DNA of 64,000 nt from Trypanosoma brucei (GCA_000002445.1 CM000207.1:2112001-2176000); one strand, 5' to 3'. Shown: positions 19,093-36,584, numbered from the stretch's first letter. Notes: generated from the sequence alone by a model not told the origin. Made by a program: numbers and translations.

Positions 19093-22076
19093 TCTATACG
19101 TCCGTACGCGTATGTATGTGTGTGTGTGTTTGTGTGTTCGCATGCTTCACCTTCATCTCCCCCACAATTATGTACTTCGATCTCTCATTATAAACAAAAA
19201 AGACAAACAAAAACAAAATAGACCGAACGGACAGACAGACATGTAGTAGTAGTAGTAGGAAAAACGAAAAAAAAAACAAAAGGAAGAAAATAAGAAAAGG
19301 GCCAGACAGAGAGATAACAGCGGTGACAGCAAGACACCCACGAATAAAGCACGCACACATACACACACACACATATTTGATTATTTAAAGAAAAAAAAAC
19401 ATCAAGTGAGCCAATTTTTATTCCCCCTTCTGCTCTCCTCAGAAGCGCAGCACGAAAAAAAAAAAGGAATAAAAGTTGGCTACACATTCATCGGTACTTT
19501 TTTTTTCTTTTTCTCATTATCCCGCTTAGTTCAACTGTCAGGGCTCACGTCACCACTCACTCATATTGAAAGAAAGATAAGGGAAGGTTAGAGTATGAAA
19601 GCAAAAGGAGGAAAGGAAAGGAAAGGAAGGGAAAGAAAAGGAGGCGAGAGATCGAAAAATTAAAAAGAAAACGAAAGGAAAGGTAAAGTGAAGGTGAAGG
19701 TGAAAGGTAAAGAAGTAGTGACGAACAAAAAAAATTCAAAAATCAAGTGAGGGAGTCTATGCATGTGTACGACAAAAAGAAGTTGTGTTGACAAACTACA
19801 CACACAAATGCAGTCATTTACACAAGCATGTGTACGTGCACATTCACCTCTCGAAAGACCCTCCACGCGCCCAGACACCGAACAGCGTGTAACTTGTGAA
19901 TAAATATAGAAAGAAAAAAAGAACCAAAAAAAAAAAAGCTTGCATCTTGTGGAAGCTGACTACCATTTTGTTATAAGCGTTTGCATGGAGGGAGGAGGAA
20001 GGAAAAAGATTTGAGGCTAAGGATTAAATAACATCACACATGTCCAAATAGAAGTGGTGCCGTAACCTCTTTCCACTCAATTCCTTTGGTACGCGAACAC
20101 ATACGTATATATAATATATATATAATATATATAAATATATATATTGCCTTCGCCACCCTGAAACAACAACAAATGAATCACACCGCGCATAAAACCCACC
20201 TTATCCTCCTCCTTCCCTTCCCTTCCCTTCCCTCCCTCCGACTCCTCACCTATTTATTTCTTAATTATTATCATCTCTCCTTCTCCAATATTACACAAAC
20301 GCCGCAAAGTAAAGTAACGCATTTTGGGTCCCTTCATCCTCCTCCTCCTTCTCCTTCTTTTCCAACCTAAACTCATCCCTACCTCCCGTTAATCACTCTT
20401 CGCTTGTTTCCTTTCTTTTTTTTTAAAAAAAAAAAGAGAGAAAAGAAAACAAATGTGTTCGACTCTTTGATTACCTGGATTCTTTCTTCAGATTTTGGCT
20501 GAGGTTGGTGTCTTCATTTTTCCTTTTTCTTTTTTTCTTTTTTTTTTTCGTTGTAAAAAGTAACCTCCACACACGCAGACAACTTTCCCCTTTTCTCGCT
20601 CAACACTAAATGTAATAAATTTCATCCTCCCCCCCCCCTCTTCTTCTTCCATAAGTCGTTGCGTACAAACAAAACAAAACGGAAGGAGGAAAGGAGGGGA
20701 AAAAAAAACAAACAAATCGTGCAGCCCTCACCACCCTCGCAAACTTATTCAGACGAAACGACTACTTGTGGACAAAATTATGAAAAAAATCTCAACCTCA
20801 CAATAACAAAGAAACACACAAAAAAAAAATGTGAGAAAGGGAGAAGATAGAGAAAGGGAGAAAGAGAAGTGACTAAACACTTCAAAACATACGTACAAGC
20901 GCATAAGCATATACACATATCCTCCTCCTTCCTTTCAGCTTCCTTTTACCGCTCTCTCACTTACCTTTCTCCATCAACTCCCCTTTGAGCATTTCCAACG
21001 CGTCCCCTACAACTCAAATTTCAAGTATTGACCCCTCCCTCAAAGAACAGAAGAAAAAAAAAAAAGAAGAACAAAAAAAAAAAATGGAGTCACTCTATCT
21101 GCCTCGCCTCACAATAAATCGGTTCACACCAGACCTCACTTTCATCCCTTATCATTCACTATGCGATAAAGCTTTAAAGTCGCACCTAATACAGAACTGT
21201 CTCCTTTTGCTTCATTGTTGCTTTTCAATTCCCCATACCCGCTCTTTCCTACTCAACCTTCCTTCAACACCCCCATCTCCCCAGTCCGAACCGTCTACAT
21301 TTACCTATCGATTTATTTTTTAAGGGTCCCTCATTCTTTTTTTTTTCTTTCCTCCTCCTCCTCCTCCTCTCCCCTTCTCCATTCACCATTCCATCCCCAT
21401 CACATACACGCATACGCATACGCATACGTTTCTTTTTCTTTTTCCTTTTTGTTTCCCCCCCCCCCAACACACACACACACGCACCAACTTCCCATATTCA
21501 CGTATCCATCTCCTTTTCCTCTTCCTCGTGTGTAAAAGTTATATTTCCCCTCACGTTATGCAATGGTGCGTGTGAGAGGGAAAGCAAGGGGGAAAGGGAG
21601 AAAAAGAAAGAAAAAAAAAAAAGAAAACCACCGCAGAGAGTCACGTGCCGCTGCGCGCGGTTTGGTCCGGTGTGGTTGCCGGAAATTCCTCGCAACCTTC
21701 TGAACCCAGATTTGCTTTCGCCCCTCTTTTTTTTTCTTTTCTTTTATCTTATCTTATTTTTGCGCTGTGCTGTGCGTGCTTTGTTTTGTTTTGTTTTTTT
21801 TCCTTTTCCCCACTTCCACACCCTTCCCTTCACACCCCCCTCCCTTCTCTCTCTCTTTCTCACACACACACAAACACACGCGAACACACGCACACAAACA
21901 CGCGCAACCCCACGCATCATTTTAAGCTTCTGCGTCTTCATTTACTCCCCCCCCCCTAACATTAATTATATATCGCACCCTCACTTTTATACCCGCCCAC
22001 ATTCGCAAGTCACGTGTTCCCCCCCCCCTGATCTCAAGCACCCCCGTCGTCTTTTATCGTTCTTTTCTTCACGATT

Positions 22077-22979
22077 TCATGAAGTGGATTTATTGTCAAG
22101 ACGGACATTCATTGCCCTGTTCGCCATCTCAATTCCATCGAACTCCTCTATGGCAACACGGGTTTCCTCCTCTGTCTTCATTACAACAATACCCATACCA
22201 CGGCTCTTTCCATTACGTCCCATGATAATCTCAGCGCGTTCCACTTCGCCAACCTGCTGGAACGTTTCTCGCAGCGCTACACTGGTGCAGTCAAACGGAA
22301 GATTTGATACAAACAATTTGCGACCGACTTCGTTCATTTGTTTGCTGCGTGGCTTTGGCACTACCTCATTCACATCGTTGAAGACACCCGAATTCCCATC
22401 ATCGGGTAAGGCATATCCACCGCGATTCACGTAACCACCACCACGACCGAAGTTTCCCGCGCTATTATTGTATGATGTCATATTAGCGTTCGCATTCCCG
22501 AATCCCCGCATTCGCTGCTGATGCTGCTGCTGCTGCTGTTGTTGTTGCTGTTGTTGTTGTTGCTGATGTGGCGGATGATGTTGTTGTTGATGATGCTGCG
22601 GTTGTTGCAACTGCCCCTGCCGAACGTACGGAGGCATCATTTCCCGCTGCACCAACTGTGGCCGTGGCCCGTCATCAAAAAGACGGACGATAAGTCGTCT
22701 CCCTTCGAAGTCGGTTTCATCAAACATGCGAATGGCTTGCAGGGCGTCTTCCCTAGTGGCCATCGTCACCAACGCGGAGCCCTTCGGACGGCCCGTCTTG
22801 TCGGCGATAAGATCCGTGTAACGAACCTTTCCAGCACTTCTGAAGTGATCCTTCACATGCTGCCATGGGGTTTGAAAGGGGATGTTGCCCACAAAAAGAA
22901 TGTTGCCGTGGTTCTGGCGACGGTCACCATCTTCAGGATCACGCTGGGGACATGATGCAGATGAATGCTCGTCGAACAT
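22077..22979 (-). CDS. DRBD2: RNA-binding protein with two RRM domains separated by a Gln/His-rich linker. Probably double RNA-binding domain protein DRBD2.
   Basis: RRM1 (ILFVGNIPFQTPWQHVKDHFRSAGKV...KGSALVTMATREDALQAI) and RRM2 (KLFVSNLPFDCTSVALRETFQQVGEV...RGMGIVVMKTEEETRVAIE) contain RNP-2/RNP-1 motifs, with a polyQ linker between them. The start was chosen at MFDEH (300 aa), because the upstream ORF extension is translated from a poly-T/G tract. The symbol comes from my memory of the T. brucei chr9 gene order and is less certain than the domain call. Confidence 0.75.
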   Translation of the reverse strand: MFDEHSSASCPQRDPEDGDRRQNHGNILFVGNIPFQTPWQHVKDHFRSAGKVRYTDLIADKTGRPKGSALVTMATREDALQAIRMFDETDFEGRRLIVRLFDDGPRPQLVQREMMPPYVRQGQLQQPQHHQQQHHPPHQQQQQQQQQQQQQQHQQRMRGFGNANANMTSYNNSAGNFGRGGGYVNRGGYALPDDGNSGVFNDVNEVVPKPRSKQMNEVGRKLFVSNLPFDCTSVALRETFQQVGEVERAEIIMGRNGKSRGMGIVVMKTEEETRVAIEEFDGIEMANRAMNVRLDNKSTS

Positions 22980-24038: not shown

Positions 24039-24533
24039 CTAGTTTGGGACCTTTAGTTTACCTTCCTGAACCTTCTCCTGAATCGCTCGCGGGTGTTCGC
24101 CATCAATTGTGCAACCGATGGAAACGGCAGTGCCAAGTACCTCCATCACCACAGATTTCATGCTGGCACCCATAGAGTTCGGCGCCGACTCCTTCGCAAT
24201 CTTCAGAATCTCAGAGAAGGCGATGTTACCGTCATGCTTAATATTCTTCACCTTCTTGCGATCACGCGGTGGCTCCTTCAGCGCACGGATCAGCCTTGAG
24301 GCGACGGATGGCGTGACGATGACGGTAGCCACACGGTTCTTCACGCGCAGCTGACACGTAACCTTGAGACCCTTCCAGTCCTTCGTGGACTTGGCGATAT
24401 CCTCACCGATTTTTTTCGCATTCAGGCCGAGCGGACCGACTTTGGGGGCGAGTGACGCCGTTGCAGGCACTTCACCACCCACAGCACGGACGACGACTGT
24501 GATCTCCTGATTGGGGTCAAACTTGGGGGGCAT
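24039..24533 (-). CDS. RPL12: 60S ribosomal protein L12.
   Basis: The 164-aa translation starts MPPKFDPNQEITVVVRAVGGEVPATASLAPKVGPLGLNAKKIGEDIAK..., the universal uL11/eL12 N-terminus. The start was set at this Met, because the 55-codon ORF extension is non-conserved leader. The coordinate comes from ORF frame arithmetic. Confidence 0.9.
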   Translation of the reverse strand: MPPKFDPNQEITVVVRAVGGEVPATASLAPKVGPLGLNAKKIGEDIAKSTKDWKGLKVTCQLRVKNRVATVIVTPSVASRLIRALKEPPRDRKKVKNIKHDGNIAFSEILKIAKESAPNSMGASMKSVVMEVLGTAVSIGCTIDGEHPRAIQEKVQEGKLKVPN

Positions 24534-24557
24534 CTTCCAGGTTTTGTTTTCCCTTCC

Positions 24558-24615
24558 AGAAATAAAAGGATACGTTAAAAGAAGAAGAGAGGATCGAGGG
24601 GAGAGAGAAAGATGC
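24558..24615 (-). promoter_or_regulatory. Polypyrimidine tract (minus strand) upstream of RPL12. Candidate trans-splice acceptor region.
   Basis: A plus-strand purine run agaaataaaaggatacgttaaaagaagaagagaggatcgaggggagagagaaagatg lies 25-80 nt 5' of the RPL12 ATG. Confidence 0.5.
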
Positions 24616-24917
24616 AAATCACAGCGTGTCCTGCGCGAGAGAACAAGAGGGCATAAGTTCGAAGCAGTGAACCACAGCAAACAACGAAAAGTCAACATGC
24701 ATGTGTGAAAGTGTGGAATGAATACAAGAGTAAATCAATTTCCTCGGTGGGTGGTCGCTGCAAAACCTTCGCGCCCAGGTTAGTGACGCCCAAGAGCATT
24801 ATATCTGCGAGCTCGCGCCAAGAGGTGGAAAGGGAAAGCAAAACTTTACGAAGTATCCGCTACCACGTGCCGCCGACGGTACCAGACGCATACCCCATAT
24901 AATTCCCCCCTGTGCTG

Positions 24918-27197
24918 CTATGGACCGTCAGCAAGGTGTTGCTCCCACAAGATACCATCTGCTCCTACTGTGTAGTAACGCAGGTTATGCTCCCAAACGT
25001 CATTCTTAGCATAATATTCCGAATTGTGTCGTTGTTCAGTGGTGCGGTTAACGGTGTAACACGCCCGCGGAGCTGGGCCGTAGGTAAAAGGAATCCGGTC
25101 CGGGAATGGCCAGACACATGGTGGAAGATACTCCCGCCGGCAGACGGATTGTCCAGCTGGTTCAATAAAGGACTCTACGGCATCCTGAACTGACGGTTCC
25201 GTCGGATAACAGGAACTGACGGAGCACAACGAAACCTCAGAGTGGCCTTTCGCCTTCCTCAGTAAGAAGGTGCATCCTTCAGGGTTTCCAGATTTCTCGT
25301 CCATCCCCTCTTGGTGTTGCCTCTCACGTTGATGGTACTGACGGGTCGCAGTTGCGACCAACTTCGAAAGGATGTCACGGAGGCAGCTCCAAGCGCTTTG
25401 GACCTCAGTGTCGTTAGAATATTCGTGAAGAACTTGATTCGCAAGCGTCGCGGACGAAAATTGCTCAATCCCAACAACCGCACTCGAATATGCATTGACT
25501 CGATACACATAGAGAGCCGCGGTTGGGTTACAATGAAGCAAGACCCACATGTATATTACTTCCTTTTTGCTAAAGTTTTCATATAGAAGGGTCCGCTCAT
25601 CGTCGGGCGCTGTGTTGTAACCTTTGCAGTTGTACTCCATCTTCACCAAGCGGAAAACTGGTTTCGGTTCTTTAAGGTCGAACACGCAATTCGTCATACA
25701 TAAAAATGCAAGATCAGCACCAAAGGAGACTTCGGAGTAGCACTTGCTTTCCCCACCATCAGGGCCACTGCACCGGCCTCTGGTCGGCAAACGCAACTCG
25801 GCGTCCACCAAACGCTTCATGGCCATTGCACTAATATTACGCCGCGACTCGCAGCTTGGTGGAAGAGGTTTCTCAATGCTGATATCGAGGCACTGCGCTG
25901 ATGGGGACCATGTGCAACTCACCGGTATGCAGAATTCCCCGCGAAACGACGACAAATGCGCTGTGGCCAATTTGAACAGCGCCGACTTGCAAACCCTGAG
26001 GGTGAAGAAGGTCCCCACAATGTCTTTGCAAGGGAGCGCTGGAGGCCGTGCCTCTGCCACCTCCTGTTGCTGCTGACCCTGAGACGATACGTCCTTTTCC
26101 ACAACTTTAGCACCCGCTACGTTTGAGGTGTGTAGTGCAGGCTCCCGCTCGTTAAGCCATTGCACTCCTAAAGGCAGCGTGGGCGGAACGGCGGCCGACG
26201 GAAGGACGCGAGTGTGACCTTTTGACTGACGCTCTTCAATGGTTTCAGCGACGCGATGCGCACAGAGATGACGGGTACGCTCACACAGAGTCGCCGTTGG
26301 CTTCACCCCGGTTGATGCTGCAATGCTTTTGCGGAGATCACAAATAACCTCGGAGAAATTGACCCCACCGCCCCCACCACCACAGGACGACCCACCAAGG
26401 AGCCCACGCAACAACTGCGACTCCAATCGGTAACGCAGCCACTGCTTGGCATATTGCTCCACGTACTCGTCAATGTAATTGTGGTTCCAACAAGCCCGGT
26501 GAGACTGCTGTGGCATCTCGTCGCTTCTGGTACGTTTGTTATACCCTGTTTCACACTTACAAGCCTCACATGCAATCATTTCTTCTTTTAACTTGTGGCG
26601 GTAAGCTGCCTGCTCCCGCTGAACTAAATCAATGACAGTACTAAGATCCGGATAGTCTTCCGTTGGGTTTGGAATAATGCCTTCCTCCAGGTATCTTTTC
26701 ACCCAAGAGTAATAGTGTCGATGTTGTCCCCGTGTGAGGCATGAAGTGCACATGGAGAGCCGCTTTGACGAATTGGATTTCATGATGGCGAGCGCAGCGT
26801 TGTAGTCGACCCGCCTACGCGTGTCATCTTCCCTAGCATCTTCCTCACCAAACGCTTCCTCCAGATACGATTCATTTACCCCCTTTAACTCTTCACGAAT
26901 CTCCGCACACCGGGGGTGCCGCCGCAGCGCCGTTAAAAGTGCCTCCGCATCTTCAGCGGGTAGCTCTAATGTGGGCGAGGCATTCAACAACATTTCCTTG
27001 CCATGGTAAACCCTTGCATTACCGGTACCGTCGCTGCTCTTACTACACAACCGGATAACTTCAGGAACAATAACATCCTTCTCGCTTGGGAAGCCATCTA
27101 CCGGAGCTCGCATAGGTACAGAGAACTGAGGAGGAAGAAATGCGCCATGCTCCTGCTGCCGTTTCTCCTCCAGAGCAGGCGACGGAAGCGATGTCAT
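24918..27197 (-). CDS. Hypothetical conserved protein (759 aa).
   Basis: 2.3-kb uninterrupted minus-strand ORF with complex composition. The embedded plus-strand ORFs are antisense. No recognisable domain. Confidence 0.6.
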   Translation of the reverse strand: MTSLPSPALEEKRQQEHGAFLPPQFSVPMRAPVDGFPSEKDVIVPEVIRLCSKSSDGTGNARVYHGKEMLLNASPTLELPAEDAEALLTALRRHPRCAEIREELKGVNESYLEEAFGEEDAREDDTRRRVDYNAALAIMKSNSSKRLSMCTSCLTRGQHRHYYSWVKRYLEEGIIPNPTEDYPDLSTVIDLVQREQAAYRHKLKEEMIACEACKCETGYNKRTRSDEMPQQSHRACWNHNYIDEYVEQYAKQWLRYRLESQLLRGLLGGSSCGGGGGGVNFSEVICDLRKSIAASTGVKPTATLCERTRHLCAHRVAETIEERQSKGHTRVLPSAAVPPTLPLGVQWLNEREPALHTSNVAGAKVVEKDVSSQGQQQQEVAEARPPALPCKDIVGTFFTLRVCKSALFKLATAHLSSFRGEFCIPVSCTWSPSAQCLDISIEKPLPPSCESRRNISAMAMKRLVDAELRLPTRGRCSGPDGGESKCYSEVSFGADLAFLCMTNCVFDLKEPKPVFRLVKMEYNCKGYNTAPDDERTLLYENFSKKEVIYMWVLLHCNPTAALYVYRVNAYSSAVVGIEQFSSATLANQVLHEYSNDTEVQSAWSCLRDILSKLVATATRQYHQRERQHQEGMDEKSGNPEGCTFLLRKAKGHSEVSLCSVSSCYPTEPSVQDAVESFIEPAGQSVCRREYLPPCVWPFPDRIPFTYGPAPRACYTVNRTTEQRHNSEYYAKNDVWEHNLRYYTVGADGILWEQHLADGP

Positions 27198-27560: not shown

Positions 27561-28841
27561 TCACAAAAGTTTTACTGCAATAAGTCGCCTGGGTAGGTCT
27601 ACCTTTTTGGTGCGTAACTTTGGAACTCGTGGAGTGTCCTTTTGTAATTCTATTTGCATATTCGCCCACGCGCAAAATTCCTCCGCCGCTTTCATGTCCT
27701 TTGCGTATGCAGAGAGGCAACAGTTACTGCTCTTCTCACCATACTCGCCATCGCAAAGGTAATATCCACCTTGCACCAACCGCTCCTCCTCAACAGCCAT
27801 CCGCAGCACCACCTGCGCTCCATCTGTCCATGTTTTACCAATGAGCAGCGAGGGATAGTAAATTAAATAGTCCAGTACGAAAGTAGGGAAGAGATCACGG
27901 TACAAATGCGTTGTAATGATACCGGGGTGACAACAGGCAACGGAGACCCGGGGTAGCGGTTGTGACGGTTGAGCTCCCTCGGTGGTGGGAAGGTAAAGGG
28001 AAGAAACACGCTGTGCAAGGATATTTGTCCACCAAATCATGCACAGTTTGGAAAGCCCATAATAACCCACAAAGTTCCATAGAGTAAAATCCCGTACCCC
28101 GGCATCCTCACTGAGCGGTGCCCTGCTGTGGAGCTCTTTCAACATCTCCAAAGGACCCTGTTGTGGGGCGACGCCCAAAAACGTGTGGCAGCTGGATGCA
28201 ATATTAACAATCCGCGACGACGCCCCAGTCCGCAGCGCTGTCTCATCCAGTAGCGGAAGCAACAACTCTGTGAGAAGCATCGGCCCAACCACGTTAGTCG
28301 CAATCATCTCCTCCATCCCTGTACCATCACAGCGGTGAAGACGCCGGCGCAACACCCCAGCCGCATTCACCAAAAGTGACAGAGATAATTGATCTTTCTG
28401 TCCAGTCACAACCTCGGCAAAATCTCGCACGCTGCTCAGATCCGACAGGTCCAATACACCAACAACGATTGCACAGCCAGCAGGATTCCGCACCATAATT
28501 TTCTTCCGTGCCTCAAGCAGCCGTTCTTCACTGCGCCCCGCCATGACCACACGCCAACCATGTTCAACAAGTTGCTGCGTAACGGCAAAACCAATGCCGG
28601 AAGATGCCCCCGTGACGAGGGCTACACGAGAGTTTTTACCCGTATTAGCAGGCCACCGACAACTGCGGCCCTTCGCCTTTCTGCGGCAAATCAGACAACT
28701 GCTAATCATGAGAAGTGTAGTTGAGACGCCCGACATATTGACCCGCCAAAACCAACCAAAGAGGTGGGTGAACGCCCAAATTAAAAGAAACTGACACATT
28801 GTTATTGCTGCCTGCATCTCAGATGACTCGACATGCAACAT
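27561..28841 (-). CDS. Short-chain dehydrogenase/reductase (classical SDR, retinol-dehydrogenase/WWOX-like) with an N-terminal transmembrane anchor.
   Basis: Rossmann motif RVALVTGASSGIGF, NAAG motif, and active-site YGLSKL (YxxxK). A hydrophobic N-terminal segment is present. The exact start Met is uncertain among M1, M9 and M36. Confidence 0.75.
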   Translation of the reverse strand: MLHVESSEMQAAITMCQFLLIWAFTHLFGWFWRVNMSGVSTTLLMISSCLICRRKAKGRSCRWPANTGKNSRVALVTGASSGIGFAVTQQLVEHGWRVVMAGRSEERLLEARKKIMVRNPAGCAIVVGVLDLSDLSSVRDFAEVVTGQKDQLSLSLLVNAAGVLRRRLHRCDGTGMEEMIATNVVGPMLLTELLLPLLDETALRTGASSRIVNIASSCHTFLGVAPQQGPLEMLKELHSRAPLSEDAGVRDFTLWNFVGYYGLSKLCMIWWTNILAQRVSSLYLPTTEGAQPSQPLPRVSVACCHPGIITTHLYRDLFPTFVLDYLIYYPSLLIGKTWTDGAQVVLRMAVEEERLVQGGYYLCDGEYGEKSSNCCLSAYAKDMKAAEEFCAWANMQIELQKDTPRVPKLRTKKVDLPRRLIAVKLL

Positions 28842-29235
28842 CGCGCCGCCAGATTACACTACTTGGACAATATGTGTATCTTTCCACTATCAGTGACTGA
28901 ACGTGCCGACGGCGGTGGCAAATTCTATCCGCTTAATGTACCAAATGCAAATTTTGTATATATGCGTTCACTCATTTGGATGTGTGGAGGGAGTGAAATG
29001 GCAATATGCTAACAAGTACATTAAGCGAATAAACTTCCCTACCACCGGAACTAGTAGCCGCATCACCAGCACTCATAGATTTGTGTCACCACAGGTTTAT
29101 GCGTGCGCAAAATAAATAAATAACTATTTACTGTGAGATGATGTTAATGTATTAAGAGGGCGAGGAAAGCGCAGCCCCTCGAAACACTACGCGTACCGAC
29201 CGCAGGCGCTGCCAAACACTTACCCACGCTATGCG

Positions 29236-30810
29236 TTACACTGGGCTTCTTAACTCGTCCTGCCACTTCTGCGACCCTGAGAAACTGTGCCCCAACTGGT
29301 CCTCGCGCTTCATCTGCGCGTAATCACCCTCGTCCCAAACCTCATCACCTTCCGCATAAGTCAGCCGAACGGTTGTATCTGTCAAGTGTTCAACGTAATG
29401 ATTCACTAAAAATCCTTCGGAGTACCGCTTCGCCGCCAACCGGAGTTGCTCCAACAAATCCTCCCCACCAACGTCACCTTCATCGTTATAATCCCCTGTA
29501 GCCACGCATCCCTCCTCGTTACCCATTGCGGGTTCCTCCGACGCATCAAGTGAATCGCTAAGTGACTCAGCGGTAAACAAATCTTCAGTGGACTCATTTC
29601 TTCCGCCCTCCGATTGTCTCCCCGCCTCTCTCGTCTTCATATCCGCCTCACTGCCCAGATCCGCCCGGGCGCGGTTATCCATCAGTAGTATTTCGCCGCA
29701 ATGAACAAAAGGGTCGCCCTCAGCTCCCGTTACTGGAAGCTCAATCAGTGGGTCACCTTCCAACACCACCCGAATGGGATTCACCGCGTGGACGTACCGC
29801 GCAAGAGACTTTTGGATACATTTGGGGGCACCGAGTGTCACGCAGTTCTTCACGTCAAAGCCGCGGGCGTGCAAAAGTAACGCGAGGCAGAAAGCAACTG
29901 CCCCACCAACACCGTGACCGACAAGGACGGTGGACCGATACGCGTGCAGTGGGGTCTCCACCATTAACGCATCACACAGCCGCAGGGCCACACTGAGGTA
30001 CTCCGCATGGAACACCGTACCGCGCAGCTCCTCCGCCTCCGCGATTTCCACACGCTCCACGTCACGAGACCAGTCGTATGTCTCACACCGTACGTAAACA
30101 ATTTGCTTATTGAATGTTTCATCAACTTCCACAACCACATTCTCCTTCCCATGCGACATGTGATGAGCTGTGACACCGCTACGAGTTCCCACGATTGCCT
30201 CTGTGACTTGCCATGACGTCAGCCTACCGGGCTCCGCAACAGCGTCCCTGCCGCCGCCGGTTTCTTGCAGTCTGTGAAGAATAAGTAAACGCTCACCGTA
30301 CGGAATGAGCGCATGCTGCATGATGCGATTCTGCCTGTCGGAGGTCGCCTCCTCCTCCACCTCGTCACGATCCAACTTCTTCTCCTCAAACTGGCAGTAG
30401 CGAACATAATTTCGTTCCACCGTCTGCTGGTAGTGGACATTCCCCACTCCGGCAGACAAAACCTGAAGCATAGAAGTAAGGGCCGTATTGCCTGGTGCAC
30501 GCAAAAGTAACTCAGCTAACCCATGCACCTGCTGTAGTTCCTTCGCAATGAACTTCCCGTACTGCGCAGTCAAAACCCGCTGCTTTTGGGACTTCCTTCT
30601 TCCACCACGCGCATCCCCGCTCCCATCGTGGAGCAGATGCCTATACTGCTGTCGGTTCCGCTCCGCCCTCTCAAGGAAGCGACGGCCCACATATTGCCTG
30701 AGTCCTTCAGTTTGGTAGAGTGGGCAGTCACGCGTAACTTGTTCCGCAACTTTGATTAAACGGCGATACGCGACTCGGGTGTCGATGCGGATTGCGGATG
30801 GCACACTCAT
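29236..30810 (-). CDS. Class-3 (fungal-type) lipase-like alpha/beta-hydrolase protein whose nucleophile motif reads GHGVG instead of GHSLG. Possible pseudo-lipase. An LYR-like N-terminal segment is also present.
   Basis: The Lipase_3 core VLVGHGVGGAVAFCLALLL...VTLGAPK...RVVLEGDPLIELP...FVHCGE matches the family motifs vtGHSLGGAlA / tfGsPrvg / DiVPrlP / H. The start was set at MSVPSAIRID, because the upstream 64 codons are translated from a poly-pyrimidine tract. The N-terminal stretch AYRRLIKVAEQ is weakly LYR-motif-like. Confidence 0.65.
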   Translation of the reverse strand: MSVPSAIRIDTRVAYRRLIKVAEQVTRDCPLYQTEGLRQYVGRRFLERAERNRQQYRHLLHDGSGDARGGRRKSQKQRVLTAQYGKFIAKELQQVHGLAELLLRAPGNTALTSMLQVLSAGVGNVHYQQTVERNYVRYCQFEEKKLDRDEVEEEATSDRQNRIMQHALIPYGERLLILHRLQETGGGRDAVAEPGRLTSWQVTEAIVGTRSGVTAHHMSHGKENVVVEVDETFNKQIVYVRCETYDWSRDVERVEIAEAEELRGTVFHAEYLSVALRLCDALMVETPLHAYRSTVLVGHGVGGAVAFCLALLLHARGFDVKNCVTLGAPKCIQKSLARYVHAVNPIRVVLEGDPLIELPVTGAEGDPFVHCGEILLMDNRARADLGSEADMKTREAGRQSEGGRNESTEDLFTAESLSDSLDASEEPAMGNEEGCVATGDYNDEGDVGGEDLLEQLRLAAKRYSEGFLVNHYVEHLTDTTVRLTYAEGDEVWDEGDYAQMKREDQLGHSFSGSQKWQDELRSPV

Positions 30811-31664
30811 CGTTGCAGGGTAACGGCAGCCCCTCTTTTGTCTGTTATTTCCTTTCCTCCCTTTTCCCCTTTCTTTATTTTTTGATCCCCCCCCCCTTGA
30901 TTCCCAACTGGAAGGAGAGAAAGGGTTTCGTAACCCACACCTAATGCTGTGTTTGAACGGTCTGTGAGAAAAAGAGGAACGACTTTTGCACGATGAGTGC
31001 AATCACGTCGTGGCACCACTTCCCTTTGCAACAAAGCATAGAAACGAGTTATCCGTTCCAATATTTAAAAAAAACAAAAAGGAAGCGCATATGGGAGCTT
31101 GAAAAATACCTCAGGCGGTAGAGCAGTCCGGAAACCACAAAGCAAAAATAATAATAATAACAATAATATATAATAACAATAACAATAACAGAGTATCAAA
31201 CGCGAAAAGAAAGGATTCCGTAATAGGCATTAAGCCTGCAATTTGAAGTGGTTGCTGCGAAGTAAAAACAATCGATAAAGAAAGGAACTGGTGGGTCGTG
31301 TAGGGGACCGGAAGGGGAGGGAAAAGCAGACAAATGGAAATGTTAAGCACCTTTTTCTTGAGGGTGAGACCTACTTTACATTCCATGGTAAATGATAGGG
31401 GCATACAAGAGAACCTTTTGCCGCCAGAAAAAAAAAAAAAAGTGGCACGGCAGACCCTGATCACCACTTTGCCACGTAAAACAAACCAAATGAAACAATC
31501 AAGGGTACGTTACACGTAAACCCACTTCACTTTACTCCCACAGTTGTAACCCTAACCCTAACCCACACCCTCTAAGGGAATACATTTATATATTTATAAA
31601 TATATGTTCTACCGCATTGATGAAGTGAGAAGTCGCCTCTTCACGACGGGTTCGCCTCCAATCC

Positions 31665-33056
31665 CTACGCGGAAAGGTCTTCCTTTGCGTTTAACGGAAG
31701 GCCAACAATGTCTTTGCCCCATTCCACAATGAGGTCCCCCTCCTTCACATCCCAAGCGTAGCGCAAGAGCCATGGATGTGTTTGGTTCATGCACTCAGCG
31801 AAGTAGGGGCTGACAAAGGCATTCGGATCTCCACCACGTGGTTCAACGGGCCGAAGTTCCTCCGCATCACACATGGCACAGTGCAGCGTTGTTTGGGCTC
31901 CATCTTCAGGGGACTTTAGGAAGAGCAAACACACGAGCTGGTACGCACAGGCCACAAAGCCACTAAAAACGAGGTCTCGCGAGAAGTTTGTGCCCACACA
32001 ACCGGGATGAAGGCTGCAAACAGCGATGCCGTGGTGCCGGGCAATGTGGTGAGCGTGATATATATTGAGCAGCTTACTGGTCCCATAACGGGCAAAGGCG
32101 TATAGGAGTGTAGACGACGTTAGTGCGCCAAGGGCGTTAGCCTCACCACTATTGAGTGCCTTCAGAGCCTCTAATAGGCGACCGTTAAGTTTACAATCAG
32201 CTGCTCCCCGGGAGAACAGCAAACGCAGGAATCCACCTTCATGTAACACCAGCTGTGGGTATCGGTGAGCCGCAGAGGAAACGTATACCACACGGCCCCT
32301 GCTTTGCTTCAATACGGGTATAAGCAGCTCAGTTAAAAGCAGAGGGCCGAGAAAATTAACCGCCGTGTGAAGCTCCAGTTGCGGATTGAACCGACTGAAC
32401 TCCAATCGTCGACGCATCATACCAGCGTTGTTGACCAACACGTCAAGACGATCATAAGATGCCCTAAACCGGTCCACAAAACGACGTACACTACTGAAGT
32501 CATCACACTCGATGCAGAACCTCCCGTCGACGATGACTGTGGAGGGCACCTCCCTATACTCTTGACCTTTCGTATCCTTAAGCCGTTGTTGCTCTGCCTT
32601 TTCCCTAATCCTCCCCGCGGTTATTTCGCTGAGTGACGCATCCCGACAGGTACATATCACGCGATACCCCTCTACCGCCAGTCCTACCGCAGTCCAGAAC
32701 CCGATGCCGGAGTTCGTCCCCGTTACGATAGCAACGGGCCGCTCCTCATCCTTCATGTCCCGCGTCATGACAAACACGGAACGTGACTCATCCACTACAG
32801 AAGATGTTGGTTTGTCCCGACTAACATTACTGTCTGTGCCTTTACGGCAACTCACTTCATCTCCTCGCCTTCGCGGCCTTGCTCTGTTGCGCACACCGCT
32901 AGCCACCAGCCGTTGTAGCACAAGCCACACCGGCACTGCTACCACCAGAAATTGATTAGGCAAAAACGCAAATGAAGCAGCGGCCGCGCAAGCAGTACAT
33001 AAAGCTCCCAACTCACTATGGTAACCAGCCGGCACGAAACCCAACCCAACACCCAT
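31665..33056 (-). CDS. Short-chain dehydrogenase/reductase, paralogue of the SDR at 27561-28841, with an N-terminal membrane anchor.
   Basis: Contains VAIVTGTNSGIGF, VNNAGMM and YGTSKL motifs. LLTELLIPVL is shared with the paralogue (LLTELLLPLL). Hydrophobic N-terminus. Confidence 0.75.
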   Translation of the reverse strand: MGVGLGFVPAGYHSELGALCTACAAAASFAFLPNQFLVVAVPVWLVLQRLVASGVRNRARPRRRGDEVSCRKGTDSNVSRDKPTSSVVDESRSVFVMTRDMKDEERPVAIVTGTNSGIGFWTAVGLAVEGYRVICTCRDASLSEITAGRIREKAEQQRLKDTKGQEYREVPSTVIVDGRFCIECDDFSSVRRFVDRFRASYDRLDVLVNNAGMMRRRLEFSRFNPQLELHTAVNFLGPLLLTELLIPVLKQSRGRVVYVSSAAHRYPQLVLHEGGFLRLLFSRGAADCKLNGRLLEALKALNSGEANALGALTSSTLLYAFARYGTSKLLNIYHAHHIARHHGIAVCSLHPGCVGTNFSRDLVFSGFVACAYQLVCLLFLKSPEDGAQTTLHCAMCDAEELRPVEPRGGDPNAFVSPYFAECMNQTHPWLLRYAWDVKEGDLIVEWGKDIVGLPLNAKEDLSA

Positions 33057-34354: not shown

Positions 34355-34972
34355 TCACATGACGGTGCAACACCCAGAGTTTGTTTTCTTGGCTTGCTTG
34401 TAGAAGGTTTTGCTCGCCATTCCCAAATCCTCACTTTGTGCGACGAGGTCATCAATTTTCTGCCCGCGTTCAATAATCTGATCAATGGCGTTGTACATGA
34501 TAACTTTGGTGTCTTCTATATCTCGTTTGATCTTCAGAATCTTATCCTGTTCTTCTGGTTTCTGGTATTTCTCCAAAGTTTCCGTCAAATGTGGCCAACT
34601 GAGGAAGTTATCTTCCTTCCCATCAACGAGGTCGTATTTGCCGCGAAATGTGGTTTGGAATTGCTGAACGAGATCACCAAGTAACGTAAATGCCACACGG
34701 GAGTTATATTCCACATCACTAATGGCTAAAGCAACCAACCCATCGAATGTCGCATGAGCAAAGACAACATTGCCATTTTCTGTTATTTGTGTTTTAACAC
34801 CTTTGGCCACGCGGTTCGATACGGTACGGGTGAGAAACACTATGAATTCCCTTGCGGAGTTCCGCTGGAAGAATCCAAATGAACTAACGTCGATGGCCTG
34901 AGAGCATATGACGGGTTGCTTCTCCACACCACTTGGGTAGGGTTTTACAATTGCCAGGGAGTAAAGCTTCAT
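34355..34972 (-). CDS. YKT6: R-SNARE Ykt6 (longin domain, SNARE motif, C-terminal CCxxM prenylation/palmitoylation box).
   Basis: The 205-aa translation runs MKLYSLAIVK...(longin)...KIKRDIEDTKVIMYNAIDQIIERGQKIDDLVAQSEDLGMASKTFYKQAKKTNSGCCTVM. The start was set at MKLYS, because the 44 upstream codons are low-complexity leader. Confidence 0.85.
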   Translation of the reverse strand: MKLYSLAIVKPYPSGVEKQPVICSQAIDVSSFGFFQRNSAREFIVFLTRTVSNRVAKGVKTQITENGNVVFAHATFDGLVALAISDVEYNSRVAFTLLGDLVQQFQTTFRGKYDLVDGKEDNFLSWPHLTETLEKYQKPEEQDKILKIKRDIEDTKVIMYNAIDQIIERGQKIDDLVAQSEDLGMASKTFYKQAKKTNSGCCTVM

Positions 34973-36584
34973 CGCAATGTTAATAATAAAAACAAAATCA
35001 ACAACTACGACAATATATGTATGCGCACCAAAGAAGGCAAACGAAAAAAAAATTCTTCTACCACAGACCTCTTCTTTTTTGTTCCCCACTTTGTGCTCCT
35101 CCACTTCTCAGACGCCTATGTTTTTTTTTCTTTTTCTTTTATAGCAATTAGAACACAAAGTAGAAAAGAAGAGTTAAATACGCTTATATATACTTATGTA
35201 TGTCACTTAAACGTAGCAGAGCTGCTGCCCACGTATAAATAATCAGTAAAGTAATACGTGAATTGTTAGAGCTGATTATATGTCAAATTTAACTCTCAGC
35301 TCCCGCCCTCCCCTTTTTTTCTTGCTTTTCTCTTGTGATATAATTGGTGATGGCGCCTTCTTTTTCCTTTTTTCCTTCTCCCTTTCTGCTTTTGTTGTTG
35401 TTGTTGTTGCTTTTATTGTCAATGCTGACCGGAATCGGCGGTTTTCAACTACCTTTCCTCCTTCCACGCGCGACACAAGAAGAAAGAAACTAAATTAAGG
35501 GAAAATATCAGTAACAATGATAATAATGATAATAATAGAATGAGAATGTAGGATAAGGCAACCAGGAAAGAAAAAGCGTATGTGAACGCAAACATATGCA
35601 TATATATATATATATATATACTAACACACATAAATATATATATATATATACACGGTGATGTTTGATGATGAAAGAACTTAAGTAAGACGGGGGAGGAAAG
35701 GGGAGAAACAAACAAATAATAAGAAAACAACAACAACAACAGCAACAAAAAAGAAAAGAAAGGTGTCACAATCTGCTTCCATTTTGTACTTAAAAGCGGA
35801 ATGACTGTTTCTTTGTTCTTCCTTCTTTTTTTTTCCTTTTTTCAAGTGAACCAAAGCACAGACGCTCATAAATTATATTCCCATGCCTCTTCCCTTTTTC
35901 CTCCATTACTCGCAATTTACTTCGCACATCAAATCGCCGATACTTCCCCCTCCCTTTTTTTTAAATCCGGCTCTCTTTTTTTTAAAAAAAAATGAAGAGA
36001 AACATATGAGGTATATAACTTTTTAATTATAATAATAATAACAGTAACATAACAGCAATAACAACAAATGAGTCGTAAAACAGCTGCGAAGGAATGAAAT
36101 GAAATGATGAGTAAGCCGAGCGGTCTCAAAGGAAACAATACGAAACTGAGCAACCACACGGAACACACGTCAAAAAAACGAACCAAAAGGAAATTATAAA
36201 AAAAGAGAGGGAGAGAGAGAGAGAGAGCGGGAACCAAACACATATGCCCACAAATAAAAATCCAGCAAAAAGAAAAAAAACGGCCGAAAAGAAAAAAAAG
36301 AAAAGAAGAACATGAAACTTTAAAAGGGGAAAATAGAGCAATCAACACACACATAAATATGTATATTTCTTTCAATATCCGTATATAAGACGTGACAAAT
36401 GCTCGAGAGTAATGATCTCACATCCCAGAACCACAATGACACCAAATAGTAATCAGAAAACGTCACCACCACCTCCATAAGGAGAAAGACACCAATACAA
36501 TGTCATCAAACAAGTACAAATATAAAAACAACTCTGAAAGAATGAATATTACTTTTCTTTTTTAAAAAAAAGAAAAAAGAAAAA

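What the first reader, a model, noticed from the sequence alone, without database searches (positions are those of the whole stretch)
27561..33056. SDR, lipase-like, SDR gene triplet with a Ser to Gly substituted lipase nucleophile
Two clearly paralogous membrane-anchored short-chain dehydrogenases carry TGxxxGIGF, NAAG and YxxSK motifs. They flank a class-3-lipase-fold protein whose nucleophile elbow reads G-H-G-V-G-G rather than G-H-S-L-G-G, while the Asp and His regions (LEGDP, FVHCGE) look conserved. That predicts a catalytically dead lipase-like protein, a pseudoenzyme or lipid-binding adaptor, sitting between two lipid-type oxidoreductases. Adjacency in a polycistron does not prove function, but the combination is suggestive of a shared lipid or retinoid-like metabolic module, and the SDR duplication around it is notable.
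Basis: partly seen in the sequence, partly recalled or inferred. Interest (0 to 1): 0.6.

Follow-up and report, generated by a model that had tools for sequence, protein, structure and literature searches.

The report
Known mitoribosome assembly factor, unrelated neighbours
The "dead lipase" is the published Trypanosoma brucei mitochondrial-ribosome assembly factor mt-LAF18, and the two dehydrogenase genes beside it are ordinary neighbours in a polycistron, not partners in a lipid pathway.

Summary
Three minus-strand genes lie at 27561-33056: SDR, lipase-like, SDR. The lipase-like nucleophile elbow reads GHGVGG.

The middle gene is 100% identical to T. brucei TREU927 Tb927.9.14050. That protein is mt-LAF18, present in PDB 6YXX, 6YXY and 7AOI. 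Its N-terminal LYR-motif helices bind acylated mitochondrial ACP. They lock the L1 stalk and brace mt-EngA in the precursor of the large mitoribosomal subunit.

The lipase domain is dead twice over:
- Ser is replaced by Gly (Gly or Ala in 36 of 37 orthologues).
- The catalytic His position is Phe467.
Asp353 is invariant.

Diplonemid homologues still carry the Ser.

The SDRs are ancient paralogues at 30% identity, each with its own Leishmania orthologue, and their cofactor and catalytic motifs are intact. Gene order differs in Leishmania major. No SDR lies near the homologue in four non-trypanosomatid loci. So "pseudoenzyme" is supported and "lipid or retinoid module" is not.

One open point remains. 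The pseudo-lipase domain is the best-conserved part of the protein, yet it is not modelled in either deposited cryo-EM chain.

The parts
29236..30810 (-). CDS of mt-LAF18 (Tb927.9.14050), 524 aa plus stop. It combines a LYR-motif ACP-binding domain with a class-3 pseudo-lipase domain.
   Evidence: 100% identical over full length to the TREU927 protein P0001. About 99% identical to PDB chain 6yxx_ES, named 'Lipase (Class 3) | mt-LAF18'. The gene ID comes from PMC7957421. The TTG-started extension to 31002 is 5' UTR with polypyrimidine tracts followed by AG.
30319..30810 (-). N-terminal helical region, residues 1-164. It holds the LYR-type three-helix bundle (A-Y-R at residues 14-16) that binds acyl-4'-phosphopantetheine mt-ACP2, plus helices that contact mt-EngA. 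This is approximately the stretch built in the published cryo-EM models.
   Evidence: PMC7957421 reports 164 N-terminal residues built. Foldseek finds only 152 modelled residues in 6yxx_ES and 137 in 7aoi_XR, both matching this region. AF2 predicts helices 5-28, 34-64 and 70-102. Tyr15 is kept in 35 of 36 and Arg16 in 36 of 36 aligned orthologues. Pfam Complex1_LYR does not match.
29626..30342 (-). Main part of the pseudo-lipase alpha/beta-hydrolase domain, residues 157-395.
   Evidence: Pfam Lipase_3 E=2.1e-8. hhalign against 101 Lipase_3 proteins gives probability 99.96% and E=2.4e-38 over residues 157-490. The AF2 model has pLDDT above 90 here and matches fungal class-3 lipases and EDS1/PAD4. 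It is the most conserved region of the protein.
29911..29913 (-). Gly300 codon (GGT) at the nucleophile position of the elbow GHGVGG (29902-29919).
   Evidence: It aligns with the nucleophile Ser of MDLA and Thermomyces lipase. The column reads Gly 17, Ala 19, Ser 1 in 37 orthologues.
29752..29754 (-). Asp353, the equivalent of the catalytic Asp (motif VLEGDPLIELP). It is retained.
   Evidence: Invariant in 37 of 37 orthologues. It aligns with the 'NDPVPKLP' Asp of MDLA and with the Asp of the Lipase_3 profile.
29701..29703 (-). His370 in FVHCGE. This is a conserved non-catalytic motif, not the triad His.
   Evidence: It aligns with the 'Y.H.G' motif that lies about 15 residues after the Asp in true lipases, and with 'YSHSS' of Thermomyces lipase. 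His is present in 36 of 37 orthologues.
29410..29412 (-). Phe467, which occupies the position of the catalytic His.
   Evidence: hhalign pairs F467-L-V-N-H-Y with the lipase motif H-Y-M-D-S-Y. MAFFT gives the same register. The column reads Phe 32 and Tyr 4 in 36 orthologues.
29470..29676 (-). Acidic, poorly conserved insertion (residues 379-447) predicted to be disordered. It splits the alpha/beta domain.
   Evidence: pLDDT is 37-58. Mean pairwise identity is 0.20.
29341..29469 (-). C-terminal helices and strand (residues 448-490) that complete the lipase-like domain.
   Evidence: hhalign coverage runs to residue 490. pLDDT is 89-94. Tyr472 is kept in 36 of 36 orthologues.
27561..28841 (-). 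SDR1: a 426-aa classical short-chain dehydrogenase/reductase of the RDH/DHRS12-13/WWOX/POR-like type. It is a neighbour gene, not part of mt-LAF18 function.
   Evidence: adh_short E=1.2e-22. TGASSGIGF at 28587-28613, NAAG at 28356-28367, YGLSK at 28047-28061. Orthologues occur throughout trypanosomatids, and the best outside hits are named DHRS12, DHRS13, RDH12 or WWOX. There is no identical PDB chain.
31665..33056 (-). SDR2: a 463-aa classical SDR with an N-terminal hydrophobic segment. It is a neighbour gene.
   Evidence: adh_short E=3.6e-21. TGTNSGIGF at 32697-32723, NNAG at 32421-32432, YGTSK at 32073-32087. The best PDB relatives are protochlorophyllide reductases and carbonyl reductase 1. 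Orthologues: L. major 440-aa protein at 50% identity, T. cruzi 442-aa protein at 64%.

Best explanation
The window is part of one long minus-strand polycistronic unit of Trypanosoma brucei TREU927 chromosome 9. The three genes are neighbours by synteny only.

The middle gene encodes mt-LAF18, a factor that acts transiently in assembly of the mitochondrial large ribosomal subunit.

Shown by published cryo-EM:
- The N-terminal LYR-type helices clamp the acylated 4'-phosphopantetheine arm of a mitochondrial acyl carrier protein (mt-ACP2).
- The module binds the L1 stalk and holds it in an inward, non-functional position.
- Further helices brace the GTPase mt-EngA and contact mt-LAF14.
- The published model has maturation proceeding on release of the module.

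Shown here:
- The rest of the protein is a class-3-lipase fold that has lost two of its three catalytic residues (Ser to Gly or Ala, His to Phe). It keeps the Asp and the surrounding scaffold under strong constraint.
- The Ser was lost at the base of the kinetoplastids. Sister-group diplonemids keep it.

Inferred:
- This domain is a non-catalytic scaffold or binding module. That fits the pattern of other dead enzymes reported in this assembly pathway (MRM, RPUSD4).
- The two flanking genes are probably active, membrane-associated RDH/DHRS-like oxidoreductases. Their substrate is unknown and there is no demonstrated link to mt-LAF18.
For: Identity:
- phmmer against PDB gives 6yxx_ES/6yxy 'mt-LAF18 / Lipase (Class 3)' at 1173 bits with about 99% identity, and 7aoi_XR.
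- The protein is 100% identical to the TREU927 protein, and the L. donovani orthologue is named 'Mitoribosomal LSU assembly factor'.

Mechanism:
- PMC7957421 describes Tb927.9.14050 as a LYR-motif protein bound to acylated mt-ACP2. It locks the L1 stalk and stabilises mt-EngA.
- Complexome profiling shows LAF18 leaving with mt-ACP in states A/B in both T. brucei and L. tarentolae (PMC13631411).

Pseudo-lipase:
- Pfam Lipase_3 match.
- The AF2 model has mean pLDDT 82. Foldseek matches it to class-3 lipases at E of about 1e-7.
- hhalign gives E=2.4e-38, with F467 at the catalytic His position.
- Column counts: position 300 G17/A19/S1, D353 37/37, position 467 F32/Y4.
- Six of seven diplonemid homologues carry Ser.

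No module:
- All but one of the 23 ORFs of at least 200 aa are on the minus strand.
- Gene order is changed in L. major.
- Other genes are interposed in L004.
- No adh_short gene appears among the called genes around the homologue, within about 10 kb or to the contig end, in L005, D. papillatum L006, L007 or the P0154 contig.
- SDR1 and SDR2 each have their own orthologue in Leishmania and T. cruzi.
- SDR1 scores better against non-kinetoplastid DHRS12-like proteins (1e-19) than against an SDR2-type protein (P0100, 1.7e-14).
Against: - The function of the pseudo-lipase domain has not been observed. Only about 140-165 N-terminal residues are modelled in the deposited structures, so 'scaffold' is an inference.
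- The domain is more conserved than the LYR region (0.70 against 0.43 mean pairwise identity). That hints at a specific role that is still unknown.
- SDR2-LAF18-SDR1 adjacency is conserved between T. brucei and T. cruzi. A looser neighbourhood persists in other trypanosomatids. A lineage-specific link therefore cannot be formally excluded.
- I could not read the Jaskolowski et al. 2020 paper behind 6YXX.
- I could not resolve the TriTrypDB IDs or the localisation of the SDRs.
- The His-to-Phe assignment rests on profile and multiple alignments, not on inspection of coordinates.
Confidence: 0.88

Rival explanations
1. First reader's model. The dead lipase is a lipid-binding adaptor that works with the two flanking SDRs as a lipid or retinoid-like metabolic module.
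For: The three genes are adjacent in T. brucei and T. cruzi. Both SDRs are of the RDH/DHRS type, which often acts on lipophilic carbonyls. The lipase-like protein is associated with an acyl chain, though through ACP and the LYR domain.
Against: The protein has a demonstrated, different role in the pre-mtLSU. Trypanosomatid polycistrons do not group genes by function (established knowledge). Gene order is rearranged in L. major, interrupted in L004, and absent from four non-trypanosomatid loci. Neither SDR matches any chain of the mitoribosome structures in the PDB.
Confidence: 0.04
2. The lipase-like domain keeps a non-canonical catalytic activity despite lacking Ser and His. One example would be acyl-ACP thioesterase or acyl transfer acting on the ACP held by its own LYR domain.
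For: Asp353 is invariant, and the elbow-Asp region is the most conserved part of the protein. The LYR domain places an acylated ACP on the same polypeptide. Diplonemid homologues and two kinetoplastid-type sequences carry Ser at the elbow.
Against: Both the nucleophile and the general base are missing (G/A300, F467). Position 300 even tolerates Arg or Lys in two deep lineages. The Ser-bearing diplonemid proteins also lack a conserved His at the aligned position. The two Ser-bearing kinetoplastid-type sequences are nested among Gly/Ala lineages, and one uses TCG, a single step from Ala GCN. That fits a position needing a small residue rather than a catalytic one.
Confidence: 0.05
3. Gly300 is a strain-specific mutation or a sequencing error in an otherwise active lipase.
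For: None was found.
Against: The same Gly is present in the independently sequenced PDB construct. It is also present in all nine named Trypanosoma species and in T. cruzi genomic DNA, where the codon is GGT. Ala replaces it throughout Leishmaniinae.
Confidence: 0.01

Closest known systems
mt-LAF18 of Trypanosoma brucei (Tb927.9.14050, UniProt Q38D50; PDB 6YXX, 6YXY, 7AOI)
   Same: It is the same protein. It is 100% identical to the TREU927 entry and about 99% identical to the deposited chains.
   Different: Nothing differs in sequence. The publication I could read describes only the N-terminal LYR/ACP module. The state of the lipase-like domain described here (Ser to Gly, His to Phe, Asp kept, acidic insertion) does not appear in that text.
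LYRM-acyl-ACP modules on mitoribosome precursors and complex I (MALSU1-L0R8F8-mtACP; NDUFA6/NDUFB9-NDUFAB1)
   Same: A three-helix LYR-type bundle grips the acylated phosphopantetheine arm of mitochondrial ACP and acts as a removable block or scaffold (PMC7957421; PMC7703582).
   Different: Those comparator LYRM proteins are described as essentially the three-helix LYR fold (single-domain size from my own knowledge). mt-LAF18 fuses the LYR region to a roughly 330-residue pseudo-lipase. It sits at the central protuberance and L1 stalk rather than on uL14m. Pfam's Complex1_LYR model does not detect it.
Plant EDS1 / PAD4 / SAG101 lipase-like proteins
   Same: They have a class-3-lipase fold used as a protein-interaction scaffold rather than for hydrolysis. 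They appear among the Foldseek matches of the model (ranks 24, 29, 36-38, 40).
   Different: They belong to an unrelated pathway (immune signalling) and have different partner domains (EP domain against LYR helices). From my own knowledge, EDS1 and PAD4 keep the Ser-Asp-His residues whereas SAG101 does not. mt-LAF18 lacks Ser and His.
Catalytically inactive enzymes reused as scaffolds in T. brucei mitoribosome assembly (MRM, RPUSD4)
   Same: They are enzyme folds reported to have lost catalytic function and to serve as structural assembly factors in the same particle (PMC7957421 discussion).
   Different: Those derive from RNA-modifying enzymes, which have an obvious ancestral link to rRNA. 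A lipase fold has no such link. Its position on the particle is unresolved.
RDH11-14 / DHRS12 / DHRS13 / DHRSX / WWOX / protochlorophyllide-reductase-like classical SDRs (for the two flanking genes)
   Same: They share the TGxxxGIG cofactor motif, N(N/A)AG, catalytic Ser and YxxxK. They also share an N-terminal hydrophobic segment, which is clear in SDR2 and weaker in SDR1. The best outside hits carry these names.
   Different: Identity to outside relatives is only about 30%. The insertion between the catalytic Ser and Tyr is long: 45 residues in SDR1 and 64 in SDR2. The substrate is unknown and no experimental data were found.

Membership tests
Class 3 lipase (Pfam PF01764, alpha/beta hydrolase) | Sequence and fold signature of the family | tested here: met
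   Lipase_3 scores 34.6 bits against a cut-off of 22. hhalign against 101 members gives E=2.4e-38. Foldseek matches 5ch8, 4tgl and 1uza at E of about 1e-7.
Class 3 lipase (Pfam PF01764, alpha/beta hydrolase) | Nucleophile Ser in the G-x-S-x-G elbow | tested here: not met
   The elbow is GHGVGG. Gly300 aligns with the nucleophile Ser of the lipases. Only 1 of 37 orthologues has Ser.
Class 3 lipase (Pfam PF01764, alpha/beta hydrolase) | Catalytic Asp | tested here: met
   D353 is invariant and aligns with the lipase Asp.
Class 3 lipase (Pfam PF01764, alpha/beta hydrolase) | Catalytic His (motif H-x4-5-Y before the last helix) | tested here: not met
   The aligned position is Phe467 (Phe 32, Tyr 4 in 36 orthologues). 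This is based on alignment; coordinates were not inspected.
Class 3 lipase (Pfam PF01764, alpha/beta hydrolase) | Ester hydrolysis activity | not testable with these tools
   This needs an enzyme assay.
LYR-motif (LYRM / Complex1_LYR) proteins | L-Y-R/K tripeptide near the N-terminus, with a downstream conserved aromatic or basic patch | tested here: met
   A-Y-R lies at residues 14-16. Tyr15 is kept in 35 of 36 and Arg16 in 36 of 36 orthologues. R44-F45 is conserved. The Leu is degenerate.
LYR-motif (LYRM / Complex1_LYR) proteins | Match to the Pfam Complex1_LYR profile | tested here: not met
   There is no match, even at E up to 10, with the N-terminal 110 residues alone.
LYR-motif (LYRM / Complex1_LYR) proteins | Three-helix bundle that binds the acyl-4'-phosphopantetheine of mitochondrial ACP | not testable with these tools
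   AF2 predicts helices 5-28, 34-64 and 70-102, and these superpose on the deposited chains. ACP binding itself comes from published cryo-EM (PMC7957421).
mt-LAF18 (kinetoplastid mitoribosomal LSU assembly factor) | Sequence identity with the protein built into the pre-mtLSU density | tested here: met
   Match to 6yxx_ES at 1173 bits. 100% identity to Tb927.9.14050.
Classical SDR (Pfam PF00106), both flanking genes | TGxxxGxG cofactor motif, NNAG, catalytic Ser and YxxxK, and an HMM score above the cut-off | tested here: met
   adh_short scores 80.8 and 76 bits against a cut-off of 26.6. Motifs were located. By inspection of 20 listed SDR1 orthologue sequences, the cofactor motif, catalytic Ser and YxxxK are kept, while the NNAG-type motif varies.
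Functionally linked gene cluster (SDR / pseudo-lipase / SDR module) | Adjacency kept beyond what background synteny explains, or independent evidence of interaction | tested here: not met
   The order is rearranged in L. major and interrupted in L004. No SDR lies nearby in L005, L006, L007 or the P0154 contig. No SDR chain is present in the mitoribosome PDB entries.

The most novel reading that the evidence does not exclude
The strongly conserved but structurally unresolved pseudo-lipase domain of mt-LAF18 may be more than an inert remnant. It could be a ligand or membrane sensor. It would read the acyl chain carried by the ACP held on its own LYR domain, or bind inner-membrane lipid. Either way it would couple mitochondrial fatty-acid synthesis status, or membrane proximity, to release of the L1-stalk lock during assembly of the large subunit. 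The fusion would descend from a Ser-bearing LYR-lipase of the euglenozoan ancestor, which diplonemids still retain.
Probability: 0.12. Interest if true: 0.6.

Novelty: already known. Interest (0 to 1): 0.22.

Why it matters
As filed, the finding adds little.
- The protein, its complex and its mechanism are published, and its chains are in the PDB.
- The gene-cluster idea fails the synteny tests.

The useful residue is narrow.
- The catalytic triad of the mt-LAF18 lipase domain is broken at two positions, not one.
- The loss of Ser maps to the base of the kinetoplastids, while diplonemids keep it.
- This domain is the best-conserved part of the protein, yet it is absent from the built models of both deposited chains examined.

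That last point flags a defined and testable gap in an otherwise well-described assembly pathway of a parasite-specific mitoribosome.

Tried and rejected
1. **SDRs as mitoribosome components.** I checked whether either SDR is a mitoribosome or assembly-factor chain. Neither has a near-identical PDB chain, only generic SDRs at E of 1e-15 or weaker. Rejected.

2. **Jaskolowski et al. 2020.** I tried to read the paper that deposited 6YXX/6YXY, by DOI. It is not held.

3. **Literature on neighbouring gene IDs.** A search for Tb927.9.14030.14040.14060 and .14070 found nothing in main texts. A TrypTag supplementary table lists .14030 as 'Pol II-like' and .14060 as 'fibrillarin-like'. I could not tie these IDs to the SDR ORFs, so SDR localisation stays untested. 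The supplements of PMC13631411 are not held.

4. **His471 as the catalytic His.** I first suspected His471 in 'LVNHYVEHL' was a retained catalytic His. I rejected this after MAFFT and hhalign both placed the lipase His at Phe467. His471 is also only 21 of 36 conserved, often replaced by Asp.

5. **Recent tandem duplication of the SDRs.** Rejected. The two are 30% identical, each has separate orthologues in Leishmania and T. cruzi, and outside DHRS12-like proteins score higher against SDR1 than an SDR2-type protein does.

6. **Pfam Complex1_LYR on the N-terminus.** No hit.

7. **Diplonemid mitoribosome paper (PMC10325924).** Its main text does not mention a LAF18 homologue.

8. **Alpha/beta-hydrolase classification paper (PMC11878206).** The passages shown do not discuss this protein.

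Full report
**1. What is in the sequence**

Between 27561 and 33056 there are three large ORFs, all on the minus strand.
- 31665-33056 encodes 463 aa.
- 29236-31002 encodes 588 aa when read from a TTG.
- 27561-28841 encodes 426 aa.

Twenty-two of the 23 ORFs of at least 200 aa in the whole window are on the minus strand. This is the layout of a trypanosomatid polycistronic transcription unit.

Pfam assigns adh_short to the outer two ORFs (E=1.2e-22 and 3.6e-21). It assigns Lipase_3 to the middle one (E=2.1e-8, 34.6 bits against a cut-off of 22).

- SDR1 has TGASSGIGF, NAAG and YGLSK.
- SDR2 has TGTNSGIGF, NNAG and YGTSK.
- The lipase-like protein has GHGVGG at 29902-29919.

The lipase-like protein starts at the ATG at 30810, not at the TTG. 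Three observations support this. The 524-aa product is 100% identical over its full length to the TREU927 protein. It matches the deposited 524-residue chain. The stretch upstream of the ATG carries polypyrimidine tracts followed by AG, as expected for a trans-splice acceptor region.

**2. Identity of the middle gene**

A sequence search of the PDB returns chain 6yxx_ES (also in 6yxy), named 'Lipase (Class 3) | mt-LAF18', at 1173 bits and about 99% identity. It also returns 7aoi_XR.

Tobiasson et al. (EMBO J 2021, PMC7957421) identify this protein as Tb927.9.14050 (UniProt Q38D50). They report the following:
- They found it by searching for LYR-motif proteins that fit a three-helix density bound to a second copy of mitochondrial acyl carrier protein (mt-ACP2).
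- The contact runs through the 4'-phosphopantetheine arm of ACP, which appears to be acylated.
- Two further helices form a bundle with the GTPase mt-EngA, and the module touches mt-LAF14.
- In the authors' model, maturation of the central protuberance and L1 stalk follows release of the module.

A 2026 complexome study reports LAF18 dissociating together with mt-ACP in the A/B precursor states, in both T. brucei and Leishmania tarentolae (PMC13631411). The L. donovani orthologue is already annotated 'Mitoribosomal LSU assembly factor'.

So the protein, its partners and its mechanism are known.

**3. The lipase-like domain**

I aligned 37 orthologues (A1) and predicted the structure from that alignment.
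- Mean pLDDT is 82, and most 10-residue blocks between residues 200 and 380 exceed 90.
- Foldseek matches the alpha/beta part to fungal class-3 lipases and feruloyl esterase A (5ch8, 4tgl, 1uza and others, E of about 1e-7). It also matches the plant lipase-like proteins EDS1, PAD4 and SAG101.
- The same search shows that the deposited chains contain only 152 (6yxx_ES) and 137 (7aoi_XR) modelled residues, all from the N-terminal helical region.

The lipase-like domain is therefore absent from the built models of both deposited chains examined.

State of the catalytic triad:
- **Nucleophile.** Gly300 aligns with the nucleophile Ser of MDLA and Thermomyces lipase. Across the 37 orthologues the column is Gly 17, Ala 19, Ser 1. 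Every named Trypanosoma species has Gly, and Leishmaniinae and Phytomonas have Ala.
- **Asp.** Asp353 is invariant and aligns with the catalytic Asp.
- **His.** His370 in FVHCGE aligns with the conserved non-catalytic 'Y-x-H-x-G-x-E' motif that follows the Asp by about 15 residues in true lipases.
- I compared the family profile with an alignment of 101 Lipase_3 proteins recovered by the profile search (probability 99.96%, E=2.4e-38, residues 157-490). The lipase motif 'D-H-x-M-x-x-Y' pairs with 'G-F-L-V-N-H-Y', which puts Phe467 at the catalytic His position.
- MAFFT gives the same register.
- The column is Phe 32 and Tyr 4 in 36 sequences. The nearby His471 is only 21 of 36 conserved.

Two of the three triad residues are therefore gone. 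This assignment rests on alignments. I could not inspect model coordinates.

Its residues 113-176 agree with the HMMER output, and its Ser146, Asp201 and His258 indices check out.

A poorly conserved acidic insertion of about 70 residues (379-447) has pLDDT 37-58 and mean identity 0.20. It splits the domain.

**4. Conservation and history**

Mean pairwise identity per region:

| Region | Mean pairwise identity |
|---|---|
| Elbow-to-Asp (residues 293-378) | 0.70 |
| Helical 106-180 | 0.61 |
| N-terminal alpha/beta core | 0.59 |
| C-terminal helices | 0.55 |
| LYR bundle | 0.43 |
| Acidic insertion | 0.20 |

The dead domain is the most constrained part of the protein.

An exhaustive profile search found 48 cluster representatives at E of 1e-10 or better. 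Source names place some of them:
- Cryptobia borreli has Ala at the nucleophile position.
- The prokinetoplastid Papus has Gly.
- Six diplonemids have Ser: Hemistasia, Diplonema ambulator, D. papillatum DIPPA_17525, Namystynia, Lacrimia and Rhynchopus.
- One unnamed member of the diplonemid clade has Gly.

A rough neighbour-joining tree places Ser in the diplonemid clade and Gly at the base of all kinetoplastid-side lineages. Ala arises within trypanosomatids. Two Ser-bearing sequences (P0030, P0151) are nested inside Gly/Ala clades. P0030 uses TCG, one step from Ala GCN. Two deep lineages even have Arg or Lys at this position.

Most diplonemid proteins also have a LYR-like N-terminus, for example 'LYRQLLR'. 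At the aligned catalytic-His position they lack a conserved His.

My inference is as follows. A LYR-lipase fusion predates the split between kinetoplastids and diplonemids. The His may have been lost first. The elbow then only needed a small residue.

**5. The two SDRs and the 'module' idea**

The two SDRs share 30% identity (E=2e-17). Each has its own orthologue elsewhere:
- SDR1 matches the L. major 484-aa protein at 41% identity and the T. cruzi 428-aa protein at 54%.
- SDR2 matches the L. major 440-aa protein at 50% and the T. cruzi 442-aa protein at 64%.

SDR1 scores higher against non-kinetoplastid proteins named DHRS12, DHRS13, RDH12 or WWOX (1e-19 and weaker) than against an SDR2-type protein (P0100, 1.7e-14). 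They are old paralogues within the RDH/DHRS/POR-like group, not a duplication around the lipase gene.

In the 20 SDR1 orthologue sequences I read, the cofactor motif, catalytic Ser and YxxxK are kept, while the NNAG-type motif varies. They are probably active enzymes. Their substrate is unknown and no literature on them was found.

Gene order across species:

| Species or locus | Order or finding |
|---|---|
| T. cruzi | SDR2-LAF18-SDR1, followed by the same 745/759-aa gene as in the window |
| L004 (unnamed trypanosomatid-like contig) | SDR2, two genes, LAF18, an ankyrin-repeat gene, SDR1 |
| L. major | LAF18, SDR2 orthologue, adenosine deaminase, SDR1 orthologue |
| L005 | No adh_short gene nearby |
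| D. papillatum L006 | No adh_short gene nearby |
| L007 (prokinetoplastid-like contig) | No adh_short gene nearby |
| P0154 contig | No adh_short gene nearby |

For the last four rows, 'nearby' means within about 10 kb of the homologue or up to the contig end.

It is established knowledge that genes within trypanosomatid polycistrons are not grouped by function and that synteny is broadly conserved in the group. Together with that, the adjacency carries no functional weight. Neither SDR matches any chain of the mitoribosome structures.

**6. Comparison with known systems**

- By identity, this is mt-LAF18.
- By mode of action, it resembles other LYRM-acyl-ACP modules on mitoribosome precursors and complex I. 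It differs in being fused to a large second domain and in escaping the Pfam LYR model.
- Its lipase half resembles EDS1-family pseudo-lipases, in that a class-3 fold is used as a scaffold.
- It fits the pattern, already noted for this particle, of enzymes that have lost activity and serve as scaffolds (MRM, RPUSD4).
- It fails membership as an active class-3 lipase on two defining residues.

**7. Verdict**

- The functional interpretation as a lipid or retinoid module with the SDRs is not supported.
- The central protein is already known.

The one open question is what the highly conserved, structurally unseen pseudo-lipase domain does. An acyl-chain or membrane sensing role is possible but is speculative, and nothing here tests it.

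Noticed in passing
window 1-64000: Twenty-two of the 23 ORFs of at least 200 aa lie on the minus strand. The exception (21670-22434 +) overlaps a minus-strand RRM gene. The window is one polycistronic unit of T. brucei TREU927 chromosome 9.
   Followed up: partly
P0179, P0182, P0184, P0185, P0187, P0191 (diplonemid homologues; D. papillatum locus L006:10001-16637): Diplonemid homologues of mt-LAF18 keep the nucleophile Ser (GHSxGG or GFSEGG), and most keep a LYR-like N-terminus. They lack a conserved His at the catalytic position. The D. papillatum gene spans 6.6 kb, so it presumably has introns. The diplonemid mitoribosome paper (PMC10325924) does not mention this protein in its main text.
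   Followed up: partly
P0030 (L002:736-2226) and P0151: Two kinetoplastid-type orthologues from read-archive assemblies carry Ser at the elbow (GHSVGG), yet are nested among Gly/Ala lineages. The P0030 codon is TCG. Their source organisms are not identified.
   Followed up: partly
P0149 (1624 aa, from the representative library): This is a run-on gene model. It fuses a LAF18 orthologue, an intervening repeat-containing segment with no assigned domain, and an SDR1 orthologue into one protein. It is most likely a gene-calling artefact across a polycistron. The order resembles that of L004 (LAF18, ankyrin-repeat gene, SDR1).
   Followed up: no
P0154 (JGI/NCBI metagenome protein): A deep-branching LAF18 homologue with GHGVGG is named 'pimeloyl-ACP methyl ester carboxylesterase' by its source. 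This automated name is almost certainly wrong for a protein that lacks the nucleophile.
   Followed up: no
window 34355-35104 (-): A Longin plus Synaptobrevin SNARE ending in ...SGCCTVM. This looks like a Ykt6-type double-Cys lipidation motif. Its orthologue sits in the same synteny block in L004.
   Followed up: partly
window 24039-24698 (-): A ribosomal protein with uL11 domains (Ribosomal_L11_N plus Ribosomal_L11). The T. cruzi orthologue is called at 164 aa. I did not determine whether it is the cytosolic or the mitochondrial protein. No link to mt-LAF18 was found.
   Followed up: no
window 24918-27197 (-): A 759-aa protein with a weak NARG2_C match below the cut-off (26.2 bits against 30.8). 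It is conserved next to SDR1 in T. cruzi at 53% identity. It may be the Tb927.9.14030 that TrypTag lists as 'Pol II-like' nuclear, but I could not confirm that link.
   Followed up: partly
window 27561-28841 and 31665-33056 (-): Both SDRs have a long insertion between the catalytic Ser and the YxxxK Tyr: 45 residues in SDR1 and 64 in SDR2. From my own knowledge, the usual spacing in classical SDRs is about 13. The insertion is reminiscent of the extra loop in RDH-type and protochlorophyllide-reductase-type SDRs.
   Followed up: no
window 20001-22000: GC skew is strongly negative here (-0.43). CA-rich imperfect tandem repeats lie at 21861-21916, in what appears to be an intergenic stretch.
   Followed up: no
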